Virus record (IMG/VR): IMGVR_UViG_3300025133_009393
Length of the DNA: 64,000 nt
Direction: 5' to 3' (one strand)
From: a virus
Numbering within the stretch: the first letter of the stretch is position 1; every line of letters starts with the position of its first letter. The position numbers were made by a program, and so were the translations under genes. Below, one piece after another: positions 34,000-53,804 of this stretch. The notes under the pieces are model-generated. The model made no database searches. It worked only from the letters and a program-made list of their open reading frames with translations, and was not told the origin of the DNA.

Positions 34000-34800
34000 T
34001 TAAATATTTTTTTTAGTTATTTTACAGGCAGCTTGTGCCGAATTAACAACATATGCTAACCACTCATATTCAACTTCGTACTTTTCTACAAATTCTATGA
34101 AAGCCTTATATTCGTGTAACTTCCAAGCATTATAACCAATCAGTTCATCAAACATAATAACAGTGCCAGGTATTATCTTGTGTTGTAGAGATTCAAGTAC
34201 ATCAACCGCAGAACTATATATATCACTATCGATGTGTAAGAGAGCGCAAGGCTTGTCATAATCTTTGATAAATTTCGGAATTGTATCCTTAAACCATCCT
34301 TTTATAAACCTAGCACCATCAACTTGAGGTATTTTTCCCTCTGCTGACAGCCCTCCTTTTTTAGTACCCTCTCCTGTCCATTCTTCAGGCAAGCCTTCAA
34401 AAGAATCAAAGCCATAAAACAACTCTTTTGAATCCGGATACAGCTCTTTTTTCAAAGAAGTTAAATATCTAGCGCTTGTACCCTCAAACGTTCCAAATTC
34501 AGCCCACAATCCATCAATCTCTACTTTGGACAGACAATGTCTATAATAAGAAAATTCTCTTGCTAAAACATGCTCGGTGGCCTTGTTAGGCACTTTATGA
34601 CGTGGATGCATTTTGTAAAATCTATAGCCTTGATTAAAAAGCTCTGGCAATTCTAATATGACTTCTTGTTGAATTGGAGCAATTAAGTTAACCGAAATAT
34701 TTCCTTCTAGGCCGTTTTCGTCGACCGCCGTCGTGGATCTTATAATTCCTTGCCTCTCTCTTAAAAGTAAGCTAAATTTTTCATCTGTTTGTATTGTCAC
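34000..34800 (-). CDS. TylF/MycF-like class I SAM-dependent O-methyltransferase
   Basis: EFGTFEG, YGFDSFEGLPE, IKGWFKDT, LHIDSDIYSS, GTVIMFDE. Confidence 0.85.
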   Translation of the reverse strand: MTIQTDEKFSLLLRERQGIIRSTTAVDENGLEGNISVNLIAPIQQEVILELPELFNQGYRFYKMHPRHKVPNKATEHVLAREFSYYRHCLSKVEIDGLWAEFGTFEGTSARYLTSLKKELYPDSKELFYGFDSFEGLPEEWTGEGTKKGGLSAEGKIPQVDGARFIKGWFKDTIPKFIKDYDKPCALLHIDSDIYSSAVDVLESLQHKIIPGTVIMFDELIGYNAWKLHEYKAFIEFVEKYEVEYEWLAYVVNSAQAACKITKKNI

Positions 34801-35102
34801 TATTTTTCCTTAAAAAATACTTCTGAATTTATATTTTTATCGTCTATAAAAAGATCGTATGCCGGCTTACCTAGTTTTAGCTCATGGTATTTTACACCCC
34901 ATTCACTAAATTGTTTTTCAGTAACTTCTCTCCAATCTAGGCCGGTACCTGTCCCTCTCGCGGTCCAATAAACAATTGTATTTCCATTATCGTACAATTC
35001 ATTGATTTTGTTAATATGTTTTTGCATTGGCTTTGCAAGAGAATAATCTCTACTTTCGGGGGTGATACATATTGTTTCATCTATATCTACATATATAATC
35101 AT
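34800..35102 (-). CDS. Small HAD-superfamily phosphatase (capsule-biosynthesis type)
   Basis: YVDIDETIC (DxD), WTARG, GKP...FIDDK. Confidence 0.85.
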   Translation of the reverse strand: MIIYVDIDETICITPESRDYSLAKPMQKHINKINELYDNGNTIVYWTARGTGTGLDWREVTEKQFSEWGVKYHELKLGKPAYDLFIDDKNINSEVFFKEK

Positions 35103-35106
35103 TATT

Positions 35107-35973
35107 TTACCTTATTACTGAATATAGCCAGCGACCACATTGTGGATCGTCCAGCTGTTTATCGGGATCGTTTAAATAAACAATCTCAATATTATTCTCC
35201 TGTAAGTGTGTGTGGAGTTGATACTCTACAGCATACTTTTTTGATTCGGGACCATGGTCATATTTTTCCATAGGTGGATAAGCATCTTCTTTTTCATTTA
35301 AAGAGCAATATATATCCATAACGGATGGGCATCCAAAAGCAAAGCCATCAAATAAGTATCTATCCATAAACCGATTTTCCGCAGGGGGAAGCCAGCCGCC
35401 AAAAAGAAATATTTTGTTGTCTATGCTGCCGTATTGTCTGATTGTTCGGGCTACCAATTCTTCGAAATCTATACCAATATTCAGCGTATAATCGTACCTA
35501 CTACGTATAATTAGATCATATTCAAAGCCGCCATCTTTGGCATATTGACGTGCCAATTGATTGCTTCTGCTCATCTTGTGAAGTTGCCTTTTTTTTAACC
35601 ACTGCCATTTTGTTATTTTTTCAACTTCATTGTTGTCCTCGTCGATATCTTCATCTTCAATGTATAGTTTCTTCAGCCTATCTCCGCATATATCATTTAT
35701 TCTATCAGTTATTATTCGATCATCAACATTGTAAATTATACCGTACGTATTGAACATCTTCATCCAGCCAATTCCACCAGGAAGATATTCCTTTACTACT
35801 CCATTTAACGGCGGCAAATTTACATTCGAAGCAACTCCTTTTTTTTGAGTAACTGCATTTGATGTGTAAGCAAAAACGTCAACATCGTTAAATGCCATGA
35901 GAGCTAGCTGATGATTTGCATGTGCATCTGCAAAGCGATTAATCTGTCCGGAATAACATAAAGCGATTTTCAT
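35107..35973 (-). CDS. Putative glycan-locus protein, possibly glycosyltransferase-like
   Basis: MKIALCYSGQ...DVF...YDLIIRSRYD...DGFAFG pattern seen in phage/viral glycan clusters; family not assigned with certainty. Confidence 0.5.
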   Translation of the reverse strand: MKIALCYSGQINRFADAHANHQLALMAFNDVDVFAYTSNAVTQKKGVASNVNLPPLNGVVKEYLPGGIGWMKMFNTYGIIYNVDDRIITDRINDICGDRLKKLYIEDEDIDEDNNEVEKITKWQWLKKRQLHKMSRSNQLARQYAKDGGFEYDLIIRSRYDYTLNIGIDFEELVARTIRQYGSIDNKIFLFGGWLPPAENRFMDRYLFDGFAFGCPSVMDIYCSLNEKEDAYPPMEKYDHGPESKKYAVEYQLHTHLQENNIEIVYLNDPDKQLDDPQCGRWLYSVIR

Positions 35974-36662
35974 TCTTTTTTTTCGTTTAAAAATTTATAC
36001 ATAGCTTCGCACAAATCAAATTGCCACTCGTAATCGATGTCGAACACTTCTTCTTCTGGAACGGGAGTCAATTTAATATCTCCTTTTTTACGAAAATCGC
36101 CCATCCAGATCCCTTTGCCAACTTTATCTAGTCTCGCTGCATACAAACAATGTGCAGCCTCATTGATAACTTTGGTAGTCCTTGTATTCATACAATCCTC
36201 GGTTAGAGGTGTTAAACACTCTTCCTCGTCGTTCCAAAAATAATTCTTTTTTTGTATAACTCCGAACATACCATCTGAGTCTGAGTTGATATACTGTTCA
36301 ACAAAATTATCAATAGTTTCGATCTTAATCAGAGGACAGCATGCACTGACAAGTATTGCGTATTTAAAAGGTAGCTTATCCCACCACTCATATAGCTCTG
36401 TCAGTTTTGGATTGTCTGCTTCAGCAGACTCCTTGCTTCTGTGGTAAATATTAACACCATGTTTTCTTCCTATCTCCAACAGCTCTTCTTCGTATACAGA
36501 AAGATAAAAATTCTCTTTTGGTATAATCTTAGAATTTAAAATCTTTTCAACGCAAATATCTGTTATGGTCGTGCCCGCAAAAGGCCTTGTCATTTTTCCA
36601 GGTGTCCTCTTAGAAGAAAGTCTAGCCTGTACAATCACACACACATCTTTTATATCTTTCAT
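35970..36662 (-). CDS. neuA: Acylneuraminate (nonulosonate) cytidylyltransferase, CTP_transf_3 family
   Basis: QARLSSKRTPGKMTRPFAG, CCPL and FDIDYEWQF match the CMP-Neu5Ac synthetase motifs. Confidence 0.85.
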   Translation of the reverse strand: MKDIKDVCVIVQARLSSKRTPGKMTRPFAGTTITDICVEKILNSKIIPKENFYLSVYEEELLEIGRKHGVNIYHRSKESAEADNPKLTELYEWWDKLPFKYAILVSACCPLIKIETIDNFVEQYINSDSDGMFGVIQKKNYFWNDEEECLTPLTEDCMNTRTTKVINEAAHCLYAARLDKVGKGIWMGDFRKKGDIKLTPVPEEEVFDIDYEWQFDLCEAMYKFLNEKKE

Positions 36663-37019
36663 TTAGTCCCCCTTTATAATCCTGTATGAGTCTTTATCAA
36701 AATGCTGAGTTGAGAATTCAAATAGTTCTGTGTCTTCTAGAGCCAACATTTGATGTCGCAAGCCCCTATACACATGAAAATTGTCTCCTTTGTTCAAAAT
36801 AATTTCTGCCGCGGCTTCAATATCATCTTCATCGGAATATTTTACAAGCATCTTTCCAGACTGAATGTAAAAAACCTCGTCTTTTAATTTATGATAATGC
36901 CAAGAACATCTTTTGTCTTTTGCAAAGTAAAGTAGTTTACCACAGTATTCCTCGCAATTTATAATCCATTTTTCAAATCCCCATCCTTTGGGGACAAATT
37001 TTATTTCTGGTTGTAACAT
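36663..37019 (-). CDS. Cupin-domain protein (sugar isomerase-like)
   Basis: KGWGFE...CSWHYHKLKDEVFYIQSG...H...EFST cupin motifs. Confidence 0.8.
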   Translation of the reverse strand: MLQPEIKFVPKGWGFEKWIINCEEYCGKLLYFAKDKRCSWHYHKLKDEVFYIQSGKMLVKYSDEDDIEAAAEIILNKGDNFHVYRGLRHQMLALEDTELFEFSTQHFDKDSYRIIKGD

Positions 37020-37020: not shown

Positions 37021-37755
37021 TTATAATCCTTTTGTTAGCCATCCGCCATCAACGTATATGTCTTGTCCAGTTATATAATCAGAAGCATTCGAGGCTAGAA
37101 ATATTGCAATTCCAGCCAAGTCAGACGGATTGCCCCATCTTTTTAAAAAAGTCTTTTCTTTTCTTTCTTCATATGTTTTTGGGTTTGACCAGCTTTTTTT
37201 AGTCATCTCTGTTAACATATACCCCGGGCCAATATTGTTAACTCTTATATTATATTTTCCCAGATCACAAGCTAATGATTTGGTCAGTTGCTTGAGGCCG
37301 CCCTTCATCGCAACATATGCTGGATTATCCGGAAAAGCCATTTCTGCATTCAAGCTAGTAATATTAATAATTGATCCGCCACGATTTTTCATTTTTGTAG
37401 CCAATCTTCTCGATATCAAATAGGGCGCCTTTAAATTGACTTGGTATGTTTTTTCCCAATCTTCGTCTTTATAATCAAAGATATTATTTCCATATGTTAC
37501 GCCGGCGTTATTGACTAAAATATCAACATTTTCATTTTCTGCTTCAATTATGCTTAACGCCATATCGATATCTTTCTCATCAGACAAATCACATCTTATG
37601 TAATTCAATTCTGAATTCTCTAATATATCTAAATTATAAACTTTGGCGCCGGCTAAAGAAAGTCCACTAGCGATTGCCTGGCCATTTCCTTGAGAAGCGC
37701 CAGTTACGACTGCAACCTTCCCTTCCAGCGAAAAGAGATCTTTAATAGTTTTCAT
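37021..37755 (-). CDS. SDR-family oxidoreductase
   Basis: VTGASQGNG, LVNNAG, YVAMK (YxxxK), ITGQDIYVDGG. Confidence 0.93.
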   Translation of the reverse strand: MKTIKDLFSLEGKVAVVTGASQGNGQAIASGLSLAGAKVYNLDILENSELNYIRCDLSDEKDIDMALSIIEAENENVDILVNNAGVTYGNNIFDYKDEDWEKTYQVNLKAPYLISRRLATKMKNRGGSIINITSLNAEMAFPDNPAYVAMKGGLKQLTKSLACDLGKYNIRVNNIGPGYMLTEMTKKSWSNPKTYEERKEKTFLKRWGNPSDLAGIAIFLASNASDYITGQDIYVDGGWLTKGL

Positions 37756-38453
37756 CTTATTAAAACCCTATTAAGTCGTATTTCTTCAGATATCATATTG
37801 GAATCATACGATATAATCTTTACTATAAAGTCAGCAATTTCTTCCGGGCGCATAAAAGTATCATAATCTTGATTTCTAACTTGCAAGCCCATTGAAGTCT
37901 GTATTGAGCCAGGAGAAACTGAATATACACGTATTCCCTCTTCTTTCAACTCATCATAGAGTGAACGTGTGAGACCCAAAAGAGCATGTTTCGAAGCGCA
38001 ATATATTGACGTTTCTTTGAATCCGGCGTATGAGGAAGAGGAGCAAATATTTACTATCCTTCCCCACTTCCTTTCCTTCATTCTTTCGCTAAGAATTTTA
38101 CACAAAACGAATGGAGCACGTACATTAACATTAAAGCATTTATTATACATCGCAATAGAAGATTCTTCTAGAGTCGAAACAGGAAAAATACCAGCACAAT
38201 TAATTAAAATATCAATATCATTTACTGATAGGCATTTTTGCGCAGTATTCTTTATTTCTTCCACATTCTCTAGATTACAAACACTATAACCTAAAGAACT
38301 CTCTCCTAGACTTTCTTGTAATTCTAAGAGTTTTTTTTCATCTCTTCCTATTGTATATATGTTACAGCCGACAGAGGCTAAAAAAATAGAGATCTCTCTT
38401 CCCAGTCCGCGAGTGGCGCCGGTTACAAAAGCGTTTTTTCCATTTAAAAGCAT
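37752..38453 (-). CDS. SDR-family oxidoreductase
   Basis: VTGATRGLG, LINCAG, YCASK, VSPG. Confidence 0.93.
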   Translation of the reverse strand: MLLNGKNAFVTGATRGLGREISIFLASVGCNIYTIGRDEKKLLELQESLGESSLGYSVCNLENVEEIKNTAQKCLSVNDIDILINCAGIFPVSTLEESSIAMYNKCFNVNVRAPFVLCKILSERMKERKWGRIVNICSSSSYAGFKETSIYCASKHALLGLTRSLYDELKEEGIRVYSVSPGSIQTSMGLQVRNQDYDTFMRPEEIADFIVKIISYDSNMISEEIRLNRVLIR

Positions 38454-38456: not shown

Positions 38457-39332
38457 CTATAGCTTTGCTTTCTGGTGCCAATAAGGATTTGCTAGCTTCT
38501 TACGAGAGGCTGCTTCTACTTCTGTCATTCTTTTGACACCATCGCCCATTGATTTTGCGGCAATATTCAAATAGCGTACCAACGTCTTAAAGCCTTGAGG
38601 CTCCAAAGATGCTGCCTGATCAGATCCGTACATTGTTCTATCTAGAGTAATATGTCTCTCGATACTAGTGGCGCCCAGAATAAAAGCCGCTACAGAAATT
38701 TGCAGGCCTCGCTCATGGCCACTATACCCAACATCGCAATTATATGCTTCTCTTAAAGCACTAATCATTTTAAGATTTGCCTCCTCATCTTCCATTGGGT
38801 AAGACGAGTTACAATGCATCAGCTCAAACGGACATTTATGATTTTCAAAAATCTTTACTGCGTTCTGTATTTCATCCAAAGTACTCATGCCAGTTGAAAT
38901 AAAAGTGTATTTTCCTTCTTCTGCAACCTTATGTAACATTGGATCTAGAGTTAGCATAGCCGATGCCACTTTGTTATATTTTAAATCATACTTGCGCAAG
39001 AATTCTTGACTTTTCAAATCCCATGCCGAGGCGAACCATTCAATATTTACCTTCTTACAAAATGCATCAATCTGATCATACTCTGCTTCACCAAATTCTA
39101 AACCATTTTTCTGTTCTCTATTTGTCTTTCCAAATGGACTTTCTCTAAATCGATCTAGATCTTCCGGAGTGTACACATCTTCTACTGTTCGTTTTTGAAA
39201 TTTTACAGCGTCGAAGCCGGCTTTTTTCGCCTCTACGATAAGCTTTTTAGCTGTTTTCATATCTCCATTGTGATTGATACCAATTTCTGCAATCAAAAAT
39301 GGTTTCTTTTCGTTTTTACCCGTTTCAAACAT
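38457..39332 (-). CDS. neuB: N-acetylneuraminate synthase family protein (short form, no SAF domain), copy 1
   Basis: IAEIGINHNG, KFQKR, ISTGMS, HCNSSYP, GYSGHE, IERHITLDR...GSDQ. Confidence 0.93.
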   Translation of the reverse strand: MFETGKNEKKPFLIAEIGINHNGDMKTAKKLIVEAKKAGFDAVKFQKRTVEDVYTPEDLDRFRESPFGKTNREQKNGLEFGEAEYDQIDAFCKKVNIEWFASAWDLKSQEFLRKYDLKYNKVASAMLTLDPMLHKVAEEGKYTFISTGMSTLDEIQNAVKIFENHKCPFELMHCNSSYPMEDEEANLKMISALREAYNCDVGYSGHERGLQISVAAFILGATSIERHITLDRTMYGSDQAASLEPQGFKTLVRYLNIAAKSMGDGVKRMTEVEAASRKKLANPYWHQKAKL

Positions 39333-39368: not shown

Positions 39369-39397
39369 ACTATAACATATTTTACTATTTTTGTAAA
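39369..39397 (-). promoter_or_regulatory. Sigma70-type promoter upstream of neuB copy 1
   Basis: TTTACA (39397-39392) - 17 nt - TATAGT (39374-39369) with TG extension, in a 78-nt intergenic gap; GAGAGGTGA RBS follows. Confidence 0.65.
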
Positions 39398-39410: not shown

Positions 39411-40367
39411 TTATGCAAACTTCTGCAGCTTTTTATATTTCTCTTCTAAGGGGAAATTCTGCCTAGATATATCAGTAGACATATTCGAAGGATGTCCTTC
39501 TCCTAGGTTTTGAAATTTTACATTCTTTCCTATATCGTTAAGGAGATAGTCCCATAGAAATACGTAACCTCTCTTATAAACTCCATAATTACCCTTTCCA
39601 GTGCGTACTTTCTTTCCCTGAAAAGCATGCTTGACCACTTCTCCGTTTTCGTCTCCCTTCTTAAGACCGTCCATTCCTACGATATGTACTTCTTTGGCGC
39701 CAAGCAAAACAGCCATACACAACAACCTAGGAACTGTACCTATCTTACAACGAAATCTAGTGTGTGCGTATATAGCCCTATCCGGATACTTGTTCTTGAT
39801 AGATTGGAAATAATCTTCTTTCTTAAATTTATCTTCAATGCATATGATTGTTGAATTATTCTCTAGGTAATTGTGAAACTTTTCGTTATTTTCACTAAAA
39901 TCTGTCTCACCGGTAAAAAAGGCAAACGAAACATCTATATTCTTCATCTTTTCATTGTGATAAAAATGATTGCAAGAAAAAACATAGTCATACTCTTCGG
40001 GATCCCAATCACACTGTATCGCGGTGGGGCCTGCGCCGACGACCAAAATTTTACTATCTTTGAATTTTTCCAATTGAGGAATATTCTGGAAGATGGCCTC
40101 TTCGCTGCACAACATATCCTCTCCAAAAGCGTCATGATATAACTCTTTAACGAAAGATAAACCATATTGTTGATTATTGAGAAAATCTTCCTTGCTGCTC
40201 ATAAATGAACTATACAAACTAGGTGTGTTTGTCCAATTTTGAGCGGAAGAGAAACGTACTCCCTCTTCCAGATCTAGCCAGTGCGTTGCGTATTTGCCTT
40301 CTTTTACCTTTATTCGAGGCATTTTCTTGCAATTATTCCAAATAATCTCGTATTCATTATCAATCAT
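39411..40367 (-). CDS. Putative nonulosonate transferase, GT42 (CstII)/Maf-like
   Basis: ILVVGAGPT...YVFSCNHFY...AVLLGAKEVHIVGMDG parallels CstII IIAGNGPS...VFRCNQFY...AIALGYKEIYLSGIDF. Confidence 0.65.
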   Translation of the reverse strand: MIDNEYEIIWNNCKKMPRIKVKEGKYATHWLDLEEGVRFSSAQNWTNTPSLYSSFMSSKEDFLNNQQYGLSFVKELYHDAFGEDMLCSEEAIFQNIPQLEKFKDSKILVVGAGPTAIQCDWDPEEYDYVFSCNHFYHNEKMKNIDVSFAFFTGETDFSENNEKFHNYLENNSTIICIEDKFKKEDYFQSIKNKYPDRAIYAHTRFRCKIGTVPRLLCMAVLLGAKEVHIVGMDGLKKGDENGEVVKHAFQGKKVRTGKGNYGVYKRGYVFLWDYLLNDIGKNVKFQNLGEGHPSNMSTDISRQNFPLEEKYKKLQKFA

Positions 40368-41016
40368 TTATTTTCTCCACTTCTGCTAATTTAATTAATA
40401 GTTTTTTGCCATCAGATGTTTTGATATAAGCGTTAGGGTATGGATCTGATAACATTCGTATCTTGTTATAAAGATAACCTGACGGCTTACTCGCAAGTTC
40501 ATCTAGTGTTATTTCGCTTTGTTTTGGAGTGCGCCTAGGGTAATAAGTTGCTTTAGTTTCGTCTTGCTTGGCCGGCCTAGGCATTTCGTTTAAAATTTCT
40601 TTTGTCATCTCTGTGCCTTTTTCCACTATTCTCATAAATATTTCTTCCAAAGAGCCTCTTAACGACAAGTCTTTCTGCACTAGAATATCGCCAGCATCAT
40701 ACTCTTCATTTATTATAAATAAAGTAATTTTAGTATCTAATACTCCTCTTATAATTTGATTTTGCAAAGGAGAGCCACCTCTAAATCTAGGAAGATCAGA
40801 AGGGTGTAGCATAATTGATTTAAAATTTTTATGTATCTCCTCGTCAATTTGCCAACTCCATCCATAAAAAAATATAATATCTGGTTGAAAATCGAAGATT
40901 TTATTATTGTTAAAGCTCTCTTTGTTCAAAATTAAAAAGTCACATTCTAGATCTTTTATTAAATTTTGATATATTTCTATAGCCCACTTTCGATAGCCAA
41001 CGCAAGCTAGCTTCAC
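40360..41016 (-). CDS. N10-formyl-THF-dependent formyltransferase (sugar N-formyltransferase-like)
   Basis: LHPSDLPRFRGGSPL, YDAGDI, DPYPNAY. GTG start overlapping the upstream TGA (the ORF track extends it to 41022). Confidence 0.85.
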   Translation of the reverse strand: MKLACVGYRKWAIEIYQNLIKDLECDFLILNKESFNNNKIFDFQPDIIFFYGWSWQIDEEIHKNFKSIMLHPSDLPRFRGGSPLQNQIIRGVLDTKITLFIINEEYDAGDILVQKDLSLRGSLEEIFMRIVEKGTEMTKEILNEMPRPAKQDETKATYYPRRTPKQSEITLDELASKPSGYLYNKIRMLSDPYPNAYIKTSDGKKLLIKLAEVEKIND

Positions 41017-44730: not shown

Positions 44731-44782
44731 TATTAACATTTTAATCCTTTTTCTATTAACATTTTAATCCTTTTTCTATTAA
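44731..44782. repeat. Perfect 23-bp tandem duplication of the 3' end of the pseB-like gene
   Basis: TATTAACATTTTAATCCTTTTTC at 44731-44753 and 44754-44776, plus a partial third copy (TATTAA). Confidence 0.95.
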
Positions 44783-47341: not shown

Positions 47342-48169
47342 TTAATTTCCTCTTAGTTTTTTACGTATTGGTTTTTCGCCTTCAGTCACTCGTTTCTCTC
47401 CGTCACCATACGCCAATTCTAGTTCTCTAACGCCTTTTACTAGCTTAATCAAGCCTTGTGGTTCAACAGAAGACATATGATCTGATCCCCATGTCGTACG
47501 ATCAAGGGTTATGTGTCTCTCAATGATAGAGGCGCCTAAATATACCGCAGCGACCGAAGTGCCAAGTCTAAATTCATGTCCACTGTAGCCAACCTCACAA
47601 TTGTATCGCTCTTTTAACGTCTTGATACAGCTAAGATTTAATTCTTCTAGAGGCGCCGGATACGTCGAGTTGCAATGAAGCATCGCAAAATCAGTGCCCT
47701 GCAGTATTTCAACAGCGGCGTCTATTTCTTCCAATGTGCTCATGCCGGTAGATATGATAACTCTTTTGCCGGTTGATGCAGCTGCTTTGAGAAGTTCGTG
47801 ATTTGTTAGCATTGCTGACGGCATTTTGATATATGGTACATCGTACGTCACCAAAAAGTTAAGACTATCTAAATCCCATGGCGAGGCTGTCCAAGCAATT
47901 CCTTTTTCCTTACAATAACGATCGATTTCATCATAATCGTGCCGGCCAAATTCTACCTTATATTTATAATCCAAATAAGTCATTCGACCCCATGGAGTAT
48001 CTCTCATTACTTTCTTCTGATGTTCAGGCACACAGACGTCTGGATTTCTTTTTTGAAATTTAACAGAATCACAACCAGCAACTGCTGCAATGTCTATCAA
48101 ACGCTTGGCAACAGCCAAACTTCCATTATGATTGATGCCTATTTCTGCTATAATATGTGTCTTTTTCAT
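47342..48169 (-). CDS. neuB: N-acetylneuraminate synthase family protein (short form), copy 3
   Basis: IAEIGINHNG, KFQKR, ISTGMS, HCNSTYP, GYSGHE, IERHITLDR...GSDH. Confidence 0.93.
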   Translation of the reverse strand: MKKTHIIAEIGINHNGSLAVAKRLIDIAAVAGCDSVKFQKRNPDVCVPEHQKKVMRDTPWGRMTYLDYKYKVEFGRHDYDEIDRYCKEKGIAWTASPWDLDSLNFLVTYDVPYIKMPSAMLTNHELLKAAASTGKRVIISTGMSTLEEIDAAVEILQGTDFAMLHCNSTYPAPLEELNLSCIKTLKERYNCEVGYSGHEFRLGTSVAAVYLGASIIERHITLDRTTWGSDHMSSVEPQGLIKLVKGVRELELAYGDGEKRVTEGEKPIRKKLRGN

Positions 48170-50232
48170 TATTTCTCCAAATATTTTCTAGGTACATTTT
48201 CGTGTACATGTGAGCCCGGGGCGGCGATATGTAAGTTAATGTTCTTTTCTTTTAGCCACTCATAAAAACTCTTGCTGGCTTCTATGTTCGTTTCGATTTC
48301 TTCATCTCGCATCGGATCTGATCTTCTAACCACATTCGGTACGTTTTCTTCTAAATCATAAAAATGTATTGATTTTGTCTCCCCGGGAGTTTCAAAATCC
48401 CAACCTATAGTATGCACGTTAGAAATACCTAAATGCTCAACTAAATAAAGACCAATTTCATACATCATTCCAGGGCCCCAAAGCCGATCTGTTGTTTTCT
48501 CTAAAACATAATCATCAAAATTTCTAGTAACTGCCAAGCTATGATTAAAGTCTTTGTTTGAGTTGACTATTGGTAAAAATATATCATATTCTTGTTGCTT
48601 TGTCCAGACGTGATTTACCATTACTTCTTCCGGTTCGCCGGCTGTGGCAATAATAACCGGTTGACTTTCTTTATAATCATAGACTTTAAAGTTGTTACAA
48701 TTGAAAAGGTGAAAATCAACTATATCTGGTACATAATCATACGCTTGTTTAATGGCTATTACTAATTTATCTTTCAACTTCTCTCTTAAGAATTCAGGTG
48801 AATAATTTTTGAGGGAAGGACCACAAGATAAAATATAGCAATCTTGACCCTTAAAGCTATCTTTCAATATATCAACCTTCTTTTTTGCATCAGATTGCGA
48901 ATTGATCTTAGATTTTAAAAAGCTAGTTTTAGAATTAGCGCTAGCTTCGATGTCTGATGTGTTGCTTTCTCCATCACCTAAAGTCTTGGCGGCGTTCATA
49001 ACAATTTTAGCCAATCCTTGGCCAATAGTTTTCTGATCCAGCTTAAGACTTTGCATGTGTTCCCAACCTATCCAGCCTTTTTCTTCCAAAGAATCTTGTC
49101 TCCACATTTCATATGCCCTTCTTAATTCTTTTCGAGCGCTTAAAATATGCGGTTCATATAAATTCATATCACAATGATATTCCGGACGAGTTGTATATGG
49201 TTTCCAATGGCCATCAACAAAAAAGGCCGCATTTTGATGTGCGAAATCCATATAGCCTGTGGCGCCGGGGACAAGAACTGGAGTGCGATGCATCAAAGCC
49301 TCCGCAACGGTTAAGCCATAGCCTTCTGCTCTTGTCAAAAGCGCAAATAAATCTGCCCTATTATACAGCCAAGATAATTGATTAAATGGTAAAGTATCTG
49401 TCAATAACATAATATTGGCATTTGACTGTTTTCCAGTTGGTGTAAAAATTTCTGATTTTACCTTCTTAATTTCACCAGCAATCATATTTGTCTGCTGCTG
49501 CATAGGATATCTATCAACAAAATCAGGCATTAAGTTTATATATGTCTTGATAATCAACACTGCGTCTTCATTATTGGCGAATTCCATTGCAAAAGATGAA
49601 ACCAACTTTTCAAAACCCTTTCGCATGGTCCACTGAGACATAGAAAATACGACAAATTTATCTTTTAATACCTCTTCCAAGTTATCGATTGGCCGAGGAT
49701 CAACAATATTGTTGTTCAAAACATAAGGTAAGAGATGACAATCAACGTCGATATCTCTTAAACTGTGTGAATAAACATTTTTATTCCATTCGCACGGCAC
49801 TATTACTGATTCCGTGTTGAGCTGCTTATATACCGTTTTCCAACTATCTGGAAGGGCATCCGCTTCCCAAACAGATATATTGATATTTTTTGTCGAATTG
49901 TGTATAAGTTTAAGGCCGGCTGCCCATACAGGATCTTTTTTAGATTGAAGAAAATACACCATGGGTGCGGGCATTTGCCAGACAGCTAAATATTCATTTT
50001 TGCAAAAGACATCGATCTCTTCTTCTGACTTAAACTCGTACTTCTCAATCAGTCTCTTTTCTTCTTTGGTAATACGATTTGTTTTATCCAGCTCGACAGG
50101 AATCGTATGAATCTTAAAATTAAAAGATCCGGGATTGTCTGTCAAAAAGTCATCAATCGCTTTAAGATAACCTCTAGCAGCCGAAGCATAGCCGCTAGTA
50201 TCGCGATACTGGCTTATAAATACAATATTCAC
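48169..50232 (-). CDS. Fusion of a GT4 glycosyltransferase and a C-terminal Maf/DUF115/GT42-like domain
   Basis: SGYASAAR, WEAD, RKG and EGYGLTVAEA (GT4 E-x7-E). C-terminal CYILSCGPSL...VIAIKQ...HLGISNVHTIGWD...HFY. Confidence 0.8.
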   Translation of the reverse strand: MNIVFISQYRDTSGYASAARGYLKAIDDFLTDNPGSFNFKIHTIPVELDKTNRITKEEKRLIEKYEFKSEEEIDVFCKNEYLAVWQMPAPMVYFLQSKKDPVWAAGLKLIHNSTKNINISVWEADALPDSWKTVYKQLNTESVIVPCEWNKNVYSHSLRDIDVDCHLLPYVLNNNIVDPRPIDNLEEVLKDKFVVFSMSQWTMRKGFEKLVSSFAMEFANNEDAVLIIKTYINLMPDFVDRYPMQQQTNMIAGEIKKVKSEIFTPTGKQSNANIMLLTDTLPFNQLSWLYNRADLFALLTRAEGYGLTVAEALMHRTPVLVPGATGYMDFAHQNAAFFVDGHWKPYTTRPEYHCDMNLYEPHILSARKELRRAYEMWRQDSLEEKGWIGWEHMQSLKLDQKTIGQGLAKIVMNAAKTLGDGESNTSDIEASANSKTSFLKSKINSQSDAKKKVDILKDSFKGQDCYILSCGPSLKNYSPEFLREKLKDKLVIAIKQAYDYVPDIVDFHLFNCNNFKVYDYKESQPVIIATAGEPEEVMVNHVWTKQQEYDIFLPIVNSNKDFNHSLAVTRNFDDYVLEKTTDRLWGPGMMYEIGLYLVEHLGISNVHTIGWDFETPGETKSIHFYDLEENVPNVVRRSDPMRDEEIETNIEASKSFYEWLKEKNINLHIAAPGSHVHENVPRKYLEK

Positions 50233-50233: not shown

Positions 50234-51541
50234 CTACACCATCATAAATCTTGTATTGTTTTCTTGGTTGATCTGGGGTGTGTTAGAGACAACCACGTCC
50301 TCATTATAACATGCACTTATGGTATCGTTGACTTTCTGGTACATCTCTTCTTTCGTAAAACTCTTTACGATCCATTTCTTTAATTCAGTAGCCTGTTTTT
50401 TAAATCTACCGTAATCTTTGTAGACATCGCTCATTCTGTTCCTATACGATTTCTCTTCGGGGTAGCACCACATTGAATCAGCTACAACAACGCCTTCCCA
50501 TACTGCTTCCCTGGCAACCGGTCTTATAGTATAGTCGATCCGCGAAAACATAGCTTTATTTTTTACTTTACCTTTTTTGTTCTTTGTCGGCTTATATAAA
50601 AAGTCAACGTGACCACTCCAATCTGGAGCTATGACTGGCAGTCCATAGTAAGCAGCTTCGAATATTGGCAAGCCAAACCCTTCTCCATGCGTCGTCGTGA
50701 CGTAAGCTTTGACTTTTCGATTCGTATACAAAGATTTCATCTGTTCTTCGCTTAATTCGCCATGAAGAAGGTAGACTTTACACTTCCTATCGGGTGCTTT
50801 TCTGTTCACAATATCTTGAATTGCTCCAGATAAAGATATTCTGTCTAATAAATTATTTTTAACAACATTAGATTTTACTATCAATCCAACGTCTTCTTGA
50901 TCGTGGAACTCTTTTATAAAACCAAGCACTGTGGCTTCTAAGTTTTTTCTAGCTCCCCATTGCGCAACGGTCAAGAAATTAAAACTAGTTTTTAAATCCA
51001 AATCAATTTTAGATGTCTCTAGATCTTTAACAGGATAGTGGATTACATCAAACGGAGTAGACGTTTTAAAATTGGGAATTTTCTCACCCGTTTGTTTGTT
51101 TGTTACGCTATAGCTCGTATTTTGATAAGTATCTTTCGAGTGATTAGATACCACAATAATCCTATCCATCATGTTTGCGCGTTCGATCCACAATGGAGCA
51201 ACTTTTGTAGTCTCAATTCCTGCAGTTACGCCTATGTTGACTTTTGCCATCTTTTCCCATTCATTAGGAATCGTAACTTGTAGTGATAAATCATATTCAA
51301 CTGGCGTGTTATTTTTTTCGCTGTCTTGATGATAATTTATAGTCTTGTTTAAAATTGAATCAATATATTCTCGCTCTTCCGAGGCTTCATGAATCCACCC
51401 AGTCTTTCCCCAATTAACAGCCAGAGCATGTATATCATACTTTTCTTCCTGGCTTCTCAAAGCGCGAAGAATAAATCTTGCATGCTCACCGTAGCCGCTT
51501 CTTGTCAAGAGCGGCCCTCTTAAAATAACTCTCTTTTTCAT
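50234..51541 (-). CDS. GT4-family glycosyltransferase
   Basis: RSGYGEHAR, RKN, HGEGFGLPIFEA...PVIA...WSGH. Start at ATG 51541 (ATGA overlap). Confidence 0.9.
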   Translation of the reverse strand: MKKRVILRGPLLTRSGYGEHARFILRALRSQEEKYDIHALAVNWGKTGWIHEASEEREYIDSILNKTINYHQDSEKNNTPVEYDLSLQVTIPNEWEKMAKVNIGVTAGIETTKVAPLWIERANMMDRIIVVSNHSKDTYQNTSYSVTNKQTGEKIPNFKTSTPFDVIHYPVKDLETSKIDLDLKTSFNFLTVAQWGARKNLEATVLGFIKEFHDQEDVGLIVKSNVVKNNLLDRISLSGAIQDIVNRKAPDRKCKVYLLHGELSEEQMKSLYTNRKVKAYVTTTHGEGFGLPIFEAAYYGLPVIAPDWSGHVDFLYKPTKNKKGKVKNKAMFSRIDYTIRPVAREAVWEGVVVADSMWCYPEEKSYRNRMSDVYKDYGRFKKQATELKKWIVKSFTKEEMYQKVNDTISACYNEDVVVSNTPQINQENNTRFMMV

Positions 51542-52806
51542 TTCATCTCCATTAATTTCCAAGATTGGTATTTCTTGCGTGTTTCCCAAGAGCCATATGT
51601 TTTGTGAATATCAGTTAAAGTTTTATCCCAAGATTTACAGAAATTTTCAAAATTGTAATTCTCCAACACATGCTCGCGGCCGAGACGGCCTAACTCTTCT
51701 CTCTCTTCTTTCGTCATATTATATATTTTTTCTAACGCTCCCACAACCTGCTCTTCACTCTGTCTATCCTCATAAATCCAAGGAATCTCCTGAGAGCCGA
51801 TAATAGCTCTGGAAGCCGGAGTGAGGCCAACACCAAACCATTCTTCTCCGTCTGTAACTTGCTCTTGAAGGCCGCCTGTCATGTTAACAATAATTGGAGT
51901 TTCACACGAGAGAGATTCTAAAGTGGAAAGACCAAAACCTTCGGCATCAGATATATTTATTGTACAATCTGCTATATTGTACAGACTGGCCATGGCTTCA
52001 TCCGGCAGTTTATCTTGCGAAAATCTAACTTGACCATCTGTGATGCCCAACTCTTCGATGATAGCAACTAAGTCTTGTCCATTTGGATCTTTTACATCTG
52101 TATGCATTAGCAATATTGCTTTATCATGCCCGACTTTATCCAAGAACTTCTTAAACCAAAAGATCAAAGAGCCGCTTTGTTTTCTTCTAGCGTTACGATT
52201 GTTCCAGAAGAAAATTAGCTTCTCACTATCTTCTTCATCGAAATGAGCTTCTTTAAACTTTTTGGTCTGCTCAGAATCTAGTTTTTTAAACAATTCTGTA
52301 TCGACCGAATGGGGCAAATGCCTAACATCTAATTCTGGCGAAACCGTACGTACGATATCGTCTGTTACTTTTGAAATTGTCACGACTACATCAGATGAAT
52401 CATACCAAACTTTATTGAATTTTGGATAAGGATAGTTATCCCATACGTGATAATATACCATGGGCACCAGAGGCCTAATTTCATTTTCAATTTCCCACAG
52501 CCAGGCAAAAAATCTAGGATCTGTCATAAACCAAATCATATCCGGACGCTCGGTCCTCAAAACAGAACGAATCATATCTTGAGTACCATAACTATCAACA
52601 GGATATATTCTCCAGTCTTCTCCAAATTCCTCTGTGGTGACAGGGGTATAATCACGGTGTTTAATTGCGCCACCAAAGCTTATAAATTGATACTTACCAG
52701 TTCTAAGCATCGCCTGAATCATATTCTTTGTTTGTATCCCGACGCCCGAAGGAGAGAGGGGATGATCACTTATAGTGAAAATTTTAATTTTCTTTACCTT
52801 TTCCAT
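51538..52806 (-). CDS. GT4-family glycosyltransferase
   Basis: SDHPLSPSGVG, NRNARRK, AEGFGLSTLESL...TPII...TGGL. Start at ATG 52806 after GAGGA. Confidence 0.9.
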   Translation of the reverse strand: MEKVKKIKIFTISDHPLSPSGVGIQTKNMIQAMLRTGKYQFISFGGAIKHRDYTPVTTEEFGEDWRIYPVDSYGTQDMIRSVLRTERPDMIWFMTDPRFFAWLWEIENEIRPLVPMVYYHVWDNYPYPKFNKVWYDSSDVVVTISKVTDDIVRTVSPELDVRHLPHSVDTELFKKLDSEQTKKFKEAHFDEEDSEKLIFFWNNRNARRKQSGSLIFWFKKFLDKVGHDKAILLMHTDVKDPNGQDLVAIIEELGITDGQVRFSQDKLPDEAMASLYNIADCTINISDAEGFGLSTLESLSCETPIIVNMTGGLQEQVTDGEEWFGVGLTPASRAIIGSQEIPWIYEDRQSEEQVVGALEKIYNMTKEEREELGRLGREHVLENYNFENFCKSWDKTLTDIHKTYGSWETRKKYQSWKLMEMK

Positions 52807-52817
52807 ATTTTCCTCTT

Positions 52818-53804
52818 TTAGCGGCAAAATTTTGTTTCTTTCTCAAAATCGCGGTCATACATCATGATCGCCAATTGTTTGAAAGAAACTTCAGGTTGCC
52901 AACCCAATATTCTTTTAGCCTTCGAAGAATCTCCCCAAAGTTTTGGCACTTCACAAGGCCTATAAAACTTAGGATCAATTACTACATGGTCTGAGGCATT
53001 CAAACCAGCATAATTGAAGACATAGTGTAGAAAGTCATCTACTGAATTTGCTTGACCGGTAGAAATAACATAATCATCCGGCTCTGTATGCTGAAGCATC
53101 AAATGCATAGCTTTTACATAGTCCCCTGCGAAGCCCCAATCTCTTTTGGCCTCTAGGTTGCCTAGGCGCAACTCGTCCTGCAAACCTAGCTTAATTCGGG
53201 CTGCAGCCTTTGTTATCTTTCTAGTAACGAAATTCTCGCCTCTTCTTGGCGATTCATGATTAAATAGAATTCCAGAACTAGCGAATATTCCATAAGATTT
53301 TCTGTACGTGGCCACTAAATGATGAGCGGCTAATTTAGCACAGGCGTACGGAGACACCGGCGAAAAAGCAGTATTCTCATTCTGCGGGCACTTAATATTA
53401 TCTCCAAACATCTCAGATGTGGATGCTTGGTAAAATTTCATATTTATATCTATATTTCTTATAGATTCTAATATATTAAGAGCGCCAAGAGAATTAATCT
53501 CGACAGTAGACAAGGGGGATCTAAAAGATTGTCCAACATGACTTTGTGCTGCCAAATTGTAAATCTCTTGTGGCCTATATTTGGTAAGTAAGTTCTGGAT
53601 AGATGACATATCAGTTATATCACCCTCTTCTAGAATCAATCTTTCGTTATCTTTAATGGTAACTAGATTGCTTAATTTACCCTTCTCTGGGCATACAGTT
53701 CTTCTTAAAAGACCAACAACAGTATAGTCATTTTCTATTAAGTGTTCAGCTAAATATGAACCATCTTGACCATTGATTCCGGTCACTAAAGCTACTTTTT
53801 CCAA
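52818..53804 (-). CDS. gmd: GDP-mannose 4,6-dehydratase
   Basis: ALVTGINGQDGSYLAE, YNLAAQSHV, FYQASTSEMFG, SPYACAK, GILFNHESPRRG..FVTRKIT, LGNL.AKRDWG. TTG start. Confidence 0.95.
   Translation of the reverse strand: MEKVALVTGINGQDGSYLAEHLIENDYTVVGLLRRTVCPEKGKLSNLVTIKDNERLILEEGDITDMSSIQNLLTKYRPQEIYNLAAQSHVGQSFRSPLSTVEINSLGALNILESIRNIDINMKFYQASTSEMFGDNIKCPQNENTAFSPVSPYACAKLAAHHLVATYRKSYGIFASSGILFNHESPRRGENFVTRKITKAAARIKLGLQDELRLGNLEAKRDWGFAGDYVKAMHLMLQHTEPDDYVISTGQANSVDDFLHYVFNYAGLNASDHVVIDPKFYRPCEVPKLWGDSSKAKRILGWQPEVSFKQLAIMMYDRDFEKETKFCR

What the first reader, a model, noticed from the sequence alone, without database searches (positions are those of the whole stretch)
34000..53804. Phage-encoded multi-pathway nonulosonic acid (sialic-acid-like) glycosylation system, probably decorating the virion
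Seen: 23 co-oriented genes between phage core genes (gp55-like sigma factor and Cas4-like nuclease), including three NeuB-family synthases, one NeuA, PseB-like, RmlD-like, Gmd, two SDRs, cupin, HAD, formyltransferase, deacetylase, GNAT, three methyltransferases, three GT4 domains and three Maf/GT42-like domains. None of these proteins has obvious transmembrane segments, and no Wzx/Wzy/ABC exporter or undecaprenyl-phosphate initiator is present. Known: NeuB plus NeuA make CMP-nonulosonates, and Maf-type enzymes transfer them to Ser/Thr of flagellin in the cytoplasm. Inference: the phage makes several modified nonulosonates and attaches them to soluble protein acceptors, most simply its own capsid/tail, as a glycan shield or adhesion coat. 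Alternatives are remodelling of host flagella/surface glycans, or DNA modification by the GT4 enzymes.
Basis: partly seen in the sequence, partly recalled or inferred. Interest (0 to 1): 0.92.

Follow-up and report, generated by a model that had tools for sequence, protein, structure and literature searches.

The report
Phage island for sialic-acid-like glycans
An uncultured marine T4-like phage devotes 20 kb to soluble enzymes that make up to three sialic-acid-like sugars and attach them with sialyltransferase-shaped enzymes, most likely to its own particle, which no paper I could find describes for a phage.

Summary
Window 34000-53804 carries 23 co-oriented minus-strand genes:
- three NeuB-family synthases
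- one CMP-sugar synthetase-like gene and a minimal HAD phosphatase
- PseB-like, RmlD-like and Gmd enzymes
- two SDRs and a cupin
- a formyltransferase, a PIG-L deacetylase and a GNAT
- three methyltransferases
- three GT4 domains
- three domains of the sialyltransferase (GT42/MptE-like) fold

The DNA is phage and correctly assembled. It has gp6/gp25-like baseplate genes. The same flanks bracket the island in independent viral contigs.

In 11 relatives the core is kept: GT4-GT4-GT4-short NeuB-GT42-like-cytidylyltransferase. The tailoring modules are swapped, so island size ranges from about 10 to 20 kb. None of the 23 proteins has a candidate membrane segment. Across the relatives' islands only 3 of 179 ORFs have one, and none has several.

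Synthesis plus transfer of nonulosonates is well supported. The transferases resemble CstI/CstII more than Maf. The canonical pseudaminic route is incomplete, with no aminotransferase or PseG. There is only one cytidylyltransferase. The "gp55-like" flank is unconfirmed.

The acceptor is inferred, not shown: virion proteins about 0.45, host envelope about 0.3.

This scan has noted similar phage nonulosonate systems on other DNA (95 notes, at least 88 genomes). I found no publication describing one.

The parts
52818..53804 (-). g23: GDP-mannose 4,6-dehydratase (Gmd)
   Evidence: Pfam GDP_Man_Dehyd 406.6 bits. A 44% identical homolog lies beside the NeuB of huge phage LR756508.
51538..52827 (-). 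g22: GT4 glycosyltransferase
   Evidence: Glycos_transf_1 48.7 bits. PDB hits are BshA-type GT4s and chlorovirus B736L. Conserved in all 11 related islands.
50234..51589 (-). g21: GT4 glycosyltransferase
   Evidence: Glycos_transf_1 30 bits. Conserved in all related islands. No PDB sequence hit.
48988..50232 (-). g20 N-terminal domain: GT4 glycosyltransferase (residues 1 to about 415 of the 687-aa fusion protein)
   Evidence: Glycos_transf_1 30.4 bits. The family profile's best PDB hit is chlorovirus GT B736L 3OY2, E 1.9e-8. The AF2 model shows a GT-B-like alternation of strands and helices.
48172..48915 (-). g20 C-terminal domain: sialyltransferase-fold (MptE/GT42-like) domain (residues about 440-687)
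   Evidence: MptE-like 21.7 bits, below cut-off. hhalign to the g17/g09 family gives probability 91.7%, E 7.6e-7. The domain is free-standing in relatives L012, L013 and L005. It is poorly modelled.
47342..48169 (-). g19: short NeuB-family nonulosonate synthase (275 aa, no SAF domain); the core synthase
   Evidence: Pfam NeuB 263.8 bits. The best PDB hit is the 290-aa sialic acid synthetase 6NCS, E 1.2e-40, with the GYSGHE and ERHIT motifs aligned. It is 71-88% identical in 14 viral contigs.
46588..47340 (-). g18: SAM methyltransferase
   Evidence: Methyltransf_23 39.8 bits.
45720..46622 (-). g17: GT42/CstI-like nonulosonate transferase candidate
   Evidence: CST-I 20.7 bits, below cut-off. 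Paralog of g09. The family profile hits CstII/CstI at E about 1e-8.
44756..45739 (-). g16: PseB/FnlA-like UDP-GlcNAc 4,6-dehydratase
   Evidence: Polysacc_synt_2 274.8 bits. NCBIfam PseB 278.8 bits, below the 407.75 cut-off.
44004..44702 (-). g15: methyltransferase (Pse-associated methylase-like)
   Evidence: Methyltransf_12/25. TIGR03587 46.8 bits, below cut-off.
43252..44001 (-). g14: RmlD-like 4-keto-sugar reductase
   Evidence: RmlD_sub_bind 82 bits.
42210..43271 (-). g13: full-length NeuB-family synthase with SAF domain
   Evidence: NeuB 242.1 bits plus SAF 34.2 bits. PDB 1XUU NeuB E 6.9e-50 and PseI 8H2C E 1.7e-45.
41647..42213 (-). g12: GNAT N-acetyltransferase (PseH-like)
   Evidence: Acetyltransf_3 56.1 bits. 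PseH 60.9 bits, below the 93.1 cut-off.
41013..41735 (-). g11: PIG-L family de-N-acetylase
   Evidence: PIG-L 77.3 bits.
40360..41022 (-). g10: formyltransferase
   Evidence: Formyl_trans_N 46.3 bits. Fmt/ArnA-like in NCBIfam.
39411..40367 (-). g09: GT42/CstII-like nonulosonate transferase candidate with an extra N-terminal beta domain
   Evidence: AF2 model pLDDT 94.3. Foldseek top hits are CstII, CstI and the Pasteurella sialyltransferase, probability 1.0, E 3e-6. 127 homolog clusters, mostly marine metagenomic.
39369..39397 (-). candidate sigma70-like promoter in the 78-nt gap ahead of g08 (TTTACA-17-TATAGT, TG-extended)
   Evidence: Consensus scan only; not evidence of function.
38457..39332 (-). 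g08: second short NeuB-family synthase (291 aa, no SAF)
   Evidence: NeuB 236.9 bits. 52.6% identical to g19. 57% identical homolog in L008, followed there by SDR and cupin genes too.
37752..38453 (-). g07: short-chain dehydrogenase
   Evidence: adh_short 156.6 bits.
37021..37755 (-). g06: short-chain dehydrogenase
   Evidence: adh_short_C2 193.9 bits.
36663..37019 (-). g05: cupin
   Evidence: Cupin_2 31.4 bits.
35970..36662 (-). g04: CMP-nonulosonate synthetase candidate (the only one in the island)
   Evidence: CTP_transf_3 48.2 bits. PDB hits are cytidylyltransferase 6OEW, murine CMP-Neu5Ac synthetase and PpNeuA. Present in 11 of 11 related islands.
35107..35973 (-). g03: unknown 288-aa protein
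   Evidence: No Pfam or NCBIfam hit. The Atlas look-alikes are mostly viral clusters, with DUF7796 on 11-12% of members of two clusters and one cluster named 'capsular polysaccharide biosynthesis protein family'. This is a lead only.
34800..35102 (-). g02: minimal HAD phosphatase (100 aa)
   Evidence: Motifs DIDET, WTARG, GKP and DDK. TIGR01689 capsule biosynthesis phosphatase 26.4 bits, below cut-off. Lies beside the short NeuB in two distant phages.
34000..34800 (-). g01: TylF-type O-methyltransferase
   Evidence: TylF 50.2 bits and Methyltransf_24 44 bits.
53817..54581 (-). upstream flank: Cas4-like PD-(D/E)XK nuclease, conserved boundary of the island
   Evidence: PDDEXK_1 62.7 bits. Immediately precedes the island in L003-L008 and L012.
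32512..33807 (-). downstream flank: Zn-ribbon protein, 127-aa and 250-aa proteins leading into the baseplate hub; conserved boundary
   Evidence: Zn_ribbon_8 38.8 bits. The same order follows the island in L003 and L006.

Best explanation
The locus is a phage-encoded, fully cytoplasmic glycan factory at a fixed site of a marine T4-like phage lineage, just upstream of the baseplate hub module.

Shown by family and fold evidence:
- three NeuB-type aldolases that condense PEP with a hexose derivative into nine-carbon ulosonic acids
- one CMP-sugar synthetase-type enzyme
- a set of tailoring enzymes
- three GT4 glycosyltransferases
- three sialyltransferase-fold domains

Inferred mechanism:
1. Gmd and the three GT4s (whose best solved relatives include the GDP-mannose-binding chlorovirus enzyme B736L) build a short neutral glycan on a soluble acceptor.
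2. The core short NeuB, the minimal HAD phosphatase and the cytidylyltransferase make a CMP-nonulosonate. This probably runs through a phosphorylated intermediate, as in Kdn-9-P or Neu5Ac-9-P pathways, since no NeuC, PseG or LegG hydrolase is present.
3. Two accessory modules supply further variants. One is PseB-like/reductase/NeuB-SAF/GNAT/deacetylase/formyltransferase. The other is short NeuB/SDR/SDR/cupin.
4. Each synthase has its own CstI/CstII-like transferase, which caps the glycan.
5. The acceptor is most likely one or more virion proteins. The result would be particles with a strain-variable acidic sugar coat.
For: - Enzyme identities.
- Transferase fold.
- GT4 link to the viral enzyme B736L; B736L binds GDP-Man (PMC9614988).
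- Functional coupling: the short NeuB, a GT42/MptE-like gene and CTP_transf_3 co-occur in 11 of 11 related islands.
- A NeuB-HAD pair is also adjacent in two distant phages.
- Cytoplasmic and self-contained: no TM candidate in the 23 proteins. Only 3 single hydrophobic stretches and no multi-pass protein among 179 ORFs of 11 related islands.
- Fixed site next to the baseplate genes, same strand, with mosaic content as expected for an exposed structure under diversifying selection.
- Real phage DNA: flat depth 15 over the whole island in run X1, and identical pieces in three other marine studies.
- Precedents for virus-made virion glycans: mycobacteriophages (Freeman 2023, cited) and giant viruses (PMC9614988).
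Against: - No acceptor was identified. The window's structural proteins have no Ser/Thr-rich tract.
- The known acceptors of the closest solved transferases (CstI/CstII) are lipooligosaccharide sugars, not proteins.
- GT4 and GT42 enzymes can act on lipid-linked acceptors without having membrane segments, so soluble enzymes do not prove a soluble acceptor.
- The time of expression is unknown. The T4 late motif TATAAATA is not enriched.
- One cytidylyltransferase would have to serve three synthases.
- All NCBIfam equivalog cut-offs are missed, so no product can be named.
- There is no experimental datum of any kind.
Confidence: 0.45

Rival explanations
1. Same biosynthesis, different acceptor. 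The enzymes remodel the infected host's envelope: LOS or LPS core, capsule precursors, or host flagellin, pilin or S-layer protein. They would use host lipid carriers and export systems. The purpose could be to block superinfection or to stop progeny sticking to debris.
For: - The closest solved transferases, CstI/CstII and the Pasteurella enzyme, sialylate LOS.
- LOS-type loci also lack flippases and polymerases.
- Phage-borne genes that alter host nonulosonate-containing capsules are known in Acinetobacter (PMC12053666, PMC6586298).
- GT4 enzymes commonly work on lipid-linked acceptors.
Against: - Not one membrane-associated or initiating enzyme occurs in 11 islands with very diverse content.
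- The known precedents listed are modifications of host capsule sugars by phage-borne genes, not a complete synthesis-plus-transfer island like this one.
- The island sits beside and co-oriented with the baseplate genes.
Confidence: 0.3
2. Auxiliary metabolism only. The phage boosts or diverts host nucleotide-sugar and CMP-nonulosonate pools, and the transferase-like proteins have another role. The phage would build no dedicated glycoconjugate.
For: - The host and timing are unknown.
- The Pse-like module is incomplete without host enzymes: no aminotransferase or PseG in the window.
Against: - Six transferase domains are conserved with the synthase in every relative.
- A sialyltransferase-fold gene lies next to each NeuB.
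Confidence: 0.07
3. The GT4 enzymes, or the whole system, glycosylate phage DNA (hypermodified bases) to evade restriction.
For: - Weak Pfam hits to 'GT4-conflict' (25-32 bits).
- Virus-encoded glycosyltransferases that hypermodify DNA are known (Pyle 2024, cited).
Against: - The complete relative G001 (203,859 bp, terminal repeats) has no thymidylate-synthase/dCMP-hydroxymethylase family gene.
- To my knowledge nonulosonates have never been reported on DNA.
- CstII-like enzymes act on sugars.
Confidence: 0.04
4. The island is a bacterial fragment mis-joined to a phage contig.
For: The enzyme families are typical of bacteria. GC content (0.33-0.40) is slightly lower than in the structural region.
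Against: - The same two flanks bracket the island in independent IMG/VR contigs L003 and L006, and the upstream flank does so in five more.
- Depth is flat across the island, and one contig runs 2.9 kb beyond the Cas4-like junction.
- Strand and GC skew are continuous with the flanks.
Confidence: 0.01

Closest known systems
Campylobacter jejuni LOS sialylation locus (neuB/neuC/neuA with GT42 sialyltransferases CstI, CstII, CstIII)
   Same: A NeuB-type synthase, a CMP-sugar synthetase and GT42-fold transferases lie in one soluble, membrane-protein-free cluster. CstII and CstI are the best sequence-profile and fold matches of g09/g17.
   Different: - That locus is bacterial and acts on lipid A-core.
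- It has NeuC, which is absent here.
- The phage proteins carry an extra N-terminal beta domain, reach only 15-17% identity and miss the Pfam CST-I cut-off.
- The phage has three synthases and many tailoring enzymes.
Flagellin O-glycosylation islands (Pse/Leg pathways plus Maf/PF01973 transferases) of Campylobacter, Helicobacter, Aeromonas and Magnetospirillum
   Same: Cytoplasmic glycosylation of a soluble protein with CMP-nonulosonates. The islands are hypervariable and rich in methyl-, formyl- and acetyl-transferases. MptE-like signatures occur in 15 of 17 family members.
   Different: - Maf 5MU5 is only rank 50 in the fold search.
- There are no flagellin-binding extra domains.
- PseC and PseG are absent.
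- GT4s are present.
- The locus is in a phage genome, with no flagellin gene.
Mycobacteriophage virion glycosylation (Freeman et al. 2023, Cell Host Microbe; PMC10527164, cited)
   Same: Phage-encoded glycosyltransferases that decorate the phage's own capsid and tail tube subunits.
   Different: As far as I know those phages carry only transferases, and no nonulosonate has been reported on them. Here the phage encodes about 17 sugar-synthesis and tailoring genes, and virion modification is not shown.
Giant-virus glycosylation machineries (chlorovirus PBCV-1/NY-2A with GMD and cytosolic GTs such as B736L; mimivirus fibril glycans; review PMC9614988)
   Same: Virus-encoded nucleotide-sugar synthesis, including GDP-mannose 4,6-dehydratase, together with soluble GTs for virion glycans. 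B736L is the best solved relative of the g20 GT4 domain.
   Different: Those are eukaryotic viruses. That review contains no mention of nonulosonic, pseudaminic or legionaminic acids.
Kdn-9-phosphate and Neu5Ac-9-phosphate pathways (Bacteroides Kdn-9-P synthase plus C0-type HAD phosphatase; animal NANS/NANP); from general knowledge
   Same: A NeuB-family synthase is paired with a small HAD phosphatase and a CMP-synthetase, without a UDP-sugar hydrolase.
   Different: The substrate was not tested. g02 has only 100 aa. The assignment rests on gene neighbourhood alone.

Membership tests
NeuB family nonulosonate synthases (PF03102) | Pfam score above the gathering threshold (22.1 bits) | tested here: met
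   236.9, 242.1 and 263.8 bits for g08, g13 and g19.
NeuB family nonulosonate synthases (PF03102) | Conserved metal-binding His motifs of the TIM barrel | tested here: met
   GYSGHE and ERHIT in g19 and g08, and SDHT and EKHFT in g13, aligned to 6NCS.
NeuB family nonulosonate synthases (PF03102) | C-terminal SAF/antifreeze-like domain | tested here: not met
   Present only in g13 (SAF 34.2 bits). g19 (275 aa) and g08 (291 aa) end before it, as does the solved 290-aa enzyme 6NCS. Short forms therefore exist within the family.
NeuB_NnaB / PseI equivalogs (TIGR03569, TIGR03586) | Score above NCBIfam's curated cut-off, which is what would name the product | tested here: not met
   Best scores are 247.8-286.3 bits against a cut-off of 399.65, and 186-248 bits against 340.25.
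Canonical pseudaminic acid pathway (PseB, C, H, G, I, F) | All six enzymes present | tested here: not met
   PseB-, PseH-, PseI- and PseF-like proteins are present but all below cut-off. No DegT aminotransferase (PseC) or PseG was found in the island or the window. DegT does occur in two relatives' islands.
GT42 sialyltransferases (CstI/CstII; PF06002) | Sialyltransferase fold with the N-terminal G-x-G-P-S and C-N-x-F-F/Y nucleotide-binding motifs | tested here: met
   Foldseek probability 1.0 to 1RO8, 2P2V and 9C08 for the pLDDT 94 model of g09. The motifs are invariant in the family.
GT42 sialyltransferases (CstI/CstII; PF06002) | Pfam CST-I score above the gathering threshold (25 bits) | tested here: not met
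   g17 scores 20.7 bits, g09 has no hit, and 6 of 17 family members hit at E up to 1. This is a distinct, distant family.
GT42 sialyltransferases (CstI/CstII; PF06002) | CMP-nonulosonate-dependent transfer; catalytic His | not testable with these tools
   An invariant His (H240 in g17, H247 in g09) follows the G-x-D-G motif. Its equivalence to CstII His188 was not established.
Maf flagellin glycosyltransferases (PF01973 MptE-like/DUF115) | Pfam score above the gathering threshold (34.6 bits) and the Maf multi-domain architecture | tested here: not met
   The g20 C-terminal domain scores 21.7 bits. 15 of 17 g17/g09-family members hit, but only at E up to 1. Maf 5MU5 is rank 50, TM 0.32/0.18.
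CMP-nonulosonate synthetases (PF02348 CTP_transf_3) | Pfam score above the gathering threshold (22.6 bits) | tested here: met
   g04 scores 48.2 bits. The PseF equivalog scores only 37.5 against 205.7. PDB relatives are CMP-Neu5Ac synthetases.
Phage or virus virion glycosylation systems | Glycan demonstrated on a virion protein | not testable with these tools
   No isolate and no proteomic data exist. Only genomic position and the absence of export genes point this way.

The most novel reading that the evidence does not exclude
A widespread lineage of marine T4-like phages coats its own particles with phage-made glycans capped by sialic-acid-like sugars. The chemistry would be reshuffled between close relatives by swapping synthase, tailoring and transferase modules at one genomic hot spot. 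That would be a viral counterpart of bacterial O-antigen or flagellin-glycan variation, and the first nonulosonate glycocalyx on a bacteriophage.
Probability: 0.4. Interest if true: 0.88.

Novelty: new variant of a known kind. Interest (0 to 1): 0.74.

Why it matters
Sialic-acid-like sugars are known as cell-surface markers of animals and as decorations of bacterial flagella, capsules and LOS. A lytic phage that spends about a ninth of its genome making and attaching several of them would add a new layer to phage biology. The 175 kb genome size behind that fraction is taken from the longest contig holding g09.

Such a coat could change several things:
- particle charge and stability
- adhesion to mucus or marine particles
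- recognition by hosts, grazers or immune lectins

The locus also offers a natural library of short NeuB synthases, GT42-like transferases and tailoring enzymes for glycoengineering. The mosaic island at a fixed site makes the hypothesis testable by comparing natural variants.

Tried and rejected
- **Megablast of the island against 50,697 phage records:** no match.
- **NeuB tblastn against phage records:** only 3 records.
- **T4 late promoter TATAAATA:** 7 sites against 7.4 expected, none informative.
depleted, and placed before three ribosome-binding sites, but none lies in an intergenic site inside the island. Timing stays unknown.
- **Ser/Thr-rich acceptor search in the window's structural proteins:** none found; the maximum is 30 of 100 residues.
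- **Acceptor search in the closest relative G003:** the only mucin-like tract belongs to a secreted lipoprotein. A 502-aa protein with a Ser/Thr tail lies among replication genes, so neither is a convincing acceptor.
- **Hypervariable capsid insertion in relatives:** the island-less phage immuto also has a divergent, shorter region there, so there is no clean correlation.
- **AF2 model of the 687-aa fusion protein:** too poor in its C-terminal domain (pLDDT 63 overall) to use for fold search.
- **Profile of the g20 C-terminal domain against the PDB:** nothing significant.
- **Single-protein scan of bacterial genomes:** only three distant or short contigs.
- **Whole genome for the window:** none is held.
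- **Sequencing runs:** no RNA holder listed.
- **Read joints in other samples:** short sides (20-37 letters), so not used.
- **Seven literature searches:** no paper on a phage-encoded nonulosonate synthesis-plus-transfer system.

Full report
**1. The observation**

The stretch 34000-53804 holds exactly 23 contiguous ORFs on the minus strand. Most overlap or abut. The only gaps over 20 nt are 78 nt (39333-39410) and 53 nt (44703-44755).

In transcription order:
- Gmd (406.6 bits)
- two GT4 proteins
- a 687-aa GT4 fusion protein
- a 275-aa NeuB (263.8 bits)
- a methyltransferase
- a 300-aa protein with a sub-threshold CST-I hit
- a PseB/FnlA-like dehydratase (274.8 bits)
- a methyltransferase
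- an RmlD-like reductase
- a 353-aa NeuB with SAF domain (242.1 bits)
- a PseH-like GNAT
- a PIG-L deacetylase
- a formyltransferase
- a 318-aa protein without any Pfam hit
- a 291-aa NeuB (236.9 bits)
- two SDRs
- a cupin
- a CTP_transf_3 cytidylyltransferase (48.2 bits)
- an unknown 288-aa protein
- a 100-aa HAD phosphatase with all four HAD motifs
- a TylF-type methyltransferase

The Cas4-like flank is real (PDDEXK_1). The "gp55-like sigma factor" flank was not confirmed. The downstream ORFs gave a Zn-ribbon hit only, and the 250-aa ORF is a conserved hypothetical in related phages.

**2. Phage context and assembly**

The window is phage DNA:
- gp25-like and gp6-like baseplate wedge proteins at 17731-18120 and 15909-17702 (PHROGs)
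- two giant ORFs of 4722 and 3497 aa
- a hub-like protein with a GDSL/SGNH domain
- a PhoH-PIN fusion

Its nearest deposited relatives are Flavobacterium phage immuto, Microcystis phage Mel-JY01 and the 484-kb uncultured phage LR756508, at 27-29% identity for the gp6-like protein. Three IMG/VR relatives have a T4 gp23-type capsid protein, and one of them is a complete 203,859-bp genome with terminal repeats.

The island is not a mis-join. In IMG/VR contigs L003 and L006 it is bracketed by the same Cas4-like gene on one side and the Zn-ribbon/250-aa/hub genes on the other. In five more contigs the PhoH-...-Cas4-like flank directly precedes it.

In a marine metagenome run, two contigs cover the whole island at a flat depth of about 15, and one continues 2.9 kb past the Cas4-like junction. 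That run may be the source of the window. Identical short pieces from all three modules occur in three other marine studies.

Phage immuto has the flanking genes but no island.

**3. The transferases**

The 300-aa (g17) and 318-aa (g09) proteins are paralogs (27% identity, E 8e-26). The evidence for their fold:
- A profile of 17 family members from this window and related contigs hits CstII and CstI, the GT42 sialyltransferases of Campylobacter, at E about 1e-8. It aligns the G-x-G-P-S and C-N-x-F-Y motifs.
- 15 of the 17 members show weak MptE-like (DUF115/Maf) Pfam matches and 6 show CST-I matches.
- With 78 homologs, AlphaFold2 gave a g09 model of mean pLDDT 94.3.
- Foldseek ranks CstII, CstI and the Pasteurella LOS sialyltransferase first (probability 1.0, E 3e-6 to 4e-5). 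Animal GT29 sialyltransferases follow, and the flagellin transferase Maf (5MU5) is only rank 50.
- The C-terminal 250 residues of the 687-aa protein match this family by profile-profile comparison (91.7%, E 7.6e-7). In some relatives this domain is a separate gene.

So three sialyltransferase-fold domains are present, each next to one NeuB. They are nearer to glycan-acting GT42 enzymes than to Maf.

The best solved relative of the GT4 domain of the fusion protein is B736L of chlorovirus NY-2A (E 1.9e-8). B736L is a soluble viral enzyme that binds GDP-mannose (PMC9614988).

**4. The pathways**

None of the NeuB, PseB, PseH or PseF matches reaches NCBIfam's equivalog cut-off, so no product can be named.

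*Core module.* It consists of the short NeuB (g19), the cytidylyltransferase (g04) and, in several relatives, the small HAD (g02).
- No UDP-sugar hydrolase (NeuC, PseG, LegG) is present.
- The NeuB-HAD pair is also adjacent in LR756508 and in marine virus AG-345-L05.
- I infer a route through a phosphorylated nonulosonate, as in Kdn-9-P or Neu5Ac-9-P pathways. This is an inference from neighbourhood only.

*Second module.* It has a PseB-like dehydratase, a reductase, a full-length NeuB, a GNAT, a deacetylase and a formyltransferase, but no aminotransferase. It is therefore either non-canonical or dependent on host enzymes.

*Third module.* It pairs a second short NeuB, 52.6% identical to g19, with two SDRs and a cupin. 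The same combination occurs in relative L008.

Only one cytidylyltransferase is present for three synthases.

**5. Comparative genomics**

Fourteen IMG/VR loci carry a g19 homolog at 71-88% identity. In the 11 non-redundant ones the order GT4-GT4-(GT4-)GT42-like-short NeuB-GT42-like-cytidylyltransferase is kept. What follows differs from contig to contig, and islands with both flanks measure about 10, 12 and 20 kb.

Extra families in relatives include DegT aminotransferases, WbqC, split transketolase, a RuBisCO-like protein, a PLD-like protein, GT2, GT8, PhyH dioxygenases and a SPASM protein.

Among 179 ORFs of these islands, only three have a single hydrophobic stretch and none looks like a multi-pass membrane protein. 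The 23 proteins of the window have none.

A conserved core plus shuffled tailoring modules at one fixed site resembles the variation seen at bacterial surface-glycan loci.

**6. The acceptor**

This is the weak point.

For virion proteins:
- The system is entirely soluble and self-contained.
- It sits directly upstream of, and on the same strand as, the baseplate and fibre genes.
- It is hypervariable.
- Viruses that glycosylate their own particles with their own soluble enzymes are known (mycobacteriophages, chloroviruses, mimiviruses).

Against, or neutral:
- The closest solved transferases act on LOS.
- LOS-type loci also lack membrane proteins.
- I could not find an acceptor. The window's structural proteins are not Ser/Thr-rich.
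- In the closest relative, the only mucin-like tract belongs to a secreted lipoprotein, and a Ser/Thr-tailed protein lies among replication genes.
- The capsid proteins of three relatives have a hypervariable insertion of about 270 aa, rich in small residues, within an otherwise 62-95% conserved protein. The island-less phage immuto also has a divergent region there, so this is a lead only.
- Expression timing could not be inferred.

I put virion proteins at about 0.45 and host envelope glycoconjugates at about 0.3.

**7. Other readings**

DNA glycosylation is unlikely. The complete relative has no thymidylate-synthase/dCMP-hydroxymethylase family gene, and CstII-like enzymes act on sugars. 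A pure metabolic role does not explain six conserved transferase domains. Mis-assembly is excluded as far as these data allow.

**8. Novelty**

Seven full-text searches found no paper on a phage that both makes and transfers nonulosonates. The nearest items are:
- prophage genes that epimerise or O-acetylate such sugars in Acinetobacter capsules (PMC12053666, PMC6586298)
- mycobacteriophage virion glycosylation (PMC10527164)
- giant-virus glycans, whose 2022 review does not mention nonulosonates

Only three of 50,697 deposited phage records hold a homolog of the core NeuB. Sialyltransferase-fold proteins are nevertheless common among uncultured phage proteins in BFVD.

This scan has itself noted comparable systems on other DNA: 95 notes in at least 88 genomes, several followed up with the same tentative reading. 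Those are unchecked leads and I did not use them as support.

Three features stand out here:
- the T4-like marine lineage
- three synthase-transferase pairs in one island
- the clear core-plus-variable architecture at a fixed site

I class it as a new variant of a known kind: virus-encoded glycosylation built from nonulosonate-island parts.

**9. Verdict**

Interest is 0.74.

Noticed in passing
window 60122-60434 (-): A tmRNA gene predicted by ARAGORN, with tag peptide ANDNSVNFDYALAA. It is one-piece. This is a phage-borne tmRNA and a possible hint to the host group.
   Followed up: no
window 29708-32230 (-): An 840-aa hub-like protein just downstream of the island carries a GDSL/SGNH esterase domain (Lipase_GDSL_2, 31.2 bits). 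It could be a de-O-acetylase for a host surface glycan.
   Followed up: no
window 178-14346 and 18145-28638 (-): Two giant ORFs of 4722 and 3497 aa flank the baseplate wedge genes. The first has a Laminin_G_3 (ConA-like lectin) domain at residues 1990-2180. The second has no Pfam hit.
   Followed up: partly
window 127-133, 55889-55895, 60765-60771 (-): CTAWTTA is strongly depleted in the window (13 sites against 36.6 expected). Three minus-strand copies sit 10-25 nt upstream of a ribosome-binding site, which makes it a candidate phage promoter element. The copy at 55889 would drive a unit running through the Cas4-like gene into the island.
   Followed up: partly
window 55898-57205 (-), 58166-58768 (-), 57291-58031 (+): A PIN-PhoH fusion protein, a SpoU-type RNA methylase, and a lone plus-strand trypsin-like peptidase gene lie upstream of the island.
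   Followed up: no
window 61108-63978 (-): A 956-aa protein with weak cytidylyltransferase-like matches (PHROG 3041, E 1.1e-6; Pfam CTP_transf_like below cut-off). It is unrelated to the CTP_transf_3 enzyme of the island.
   Followed up: no
L027:10194-10484 (-) (relative G003): A 96-aa predicted lipoprotein (lipobox LAGC) followed by a tract that is 65% Thr/Ser, like a mucin. It is a possible secreted or surface protein of the infected cell.
   Followed up: partly
L018, L019, L020 (capsid genes of relatives G002, G003, G001): The gp23-type major capsid proteins (585-621 aa) have a hypervariable insertion of about 270 aa, rich in Ser/Thr/Gly/Ala (0-25% identical columns), within an otherwise 62-95% identical protein.
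   Followed up: partly
L024 (2.5-kb contig of a Pelagibacteraceae single-cell genome): It encodes a short NeuB 60.6% identical to g08, next to an ORF that resembles one in the related phage islands. This is a weak lead to SAR11 as host or gene source.
   Followed up: partly
window 33808-33999 (-): The 192-nt 'gap' after the island holds a small ORF with a good ribosome-binding site (AGGAGAAATAAATG), so gene packing is continuous into the baseplate module.
   Followed up: no
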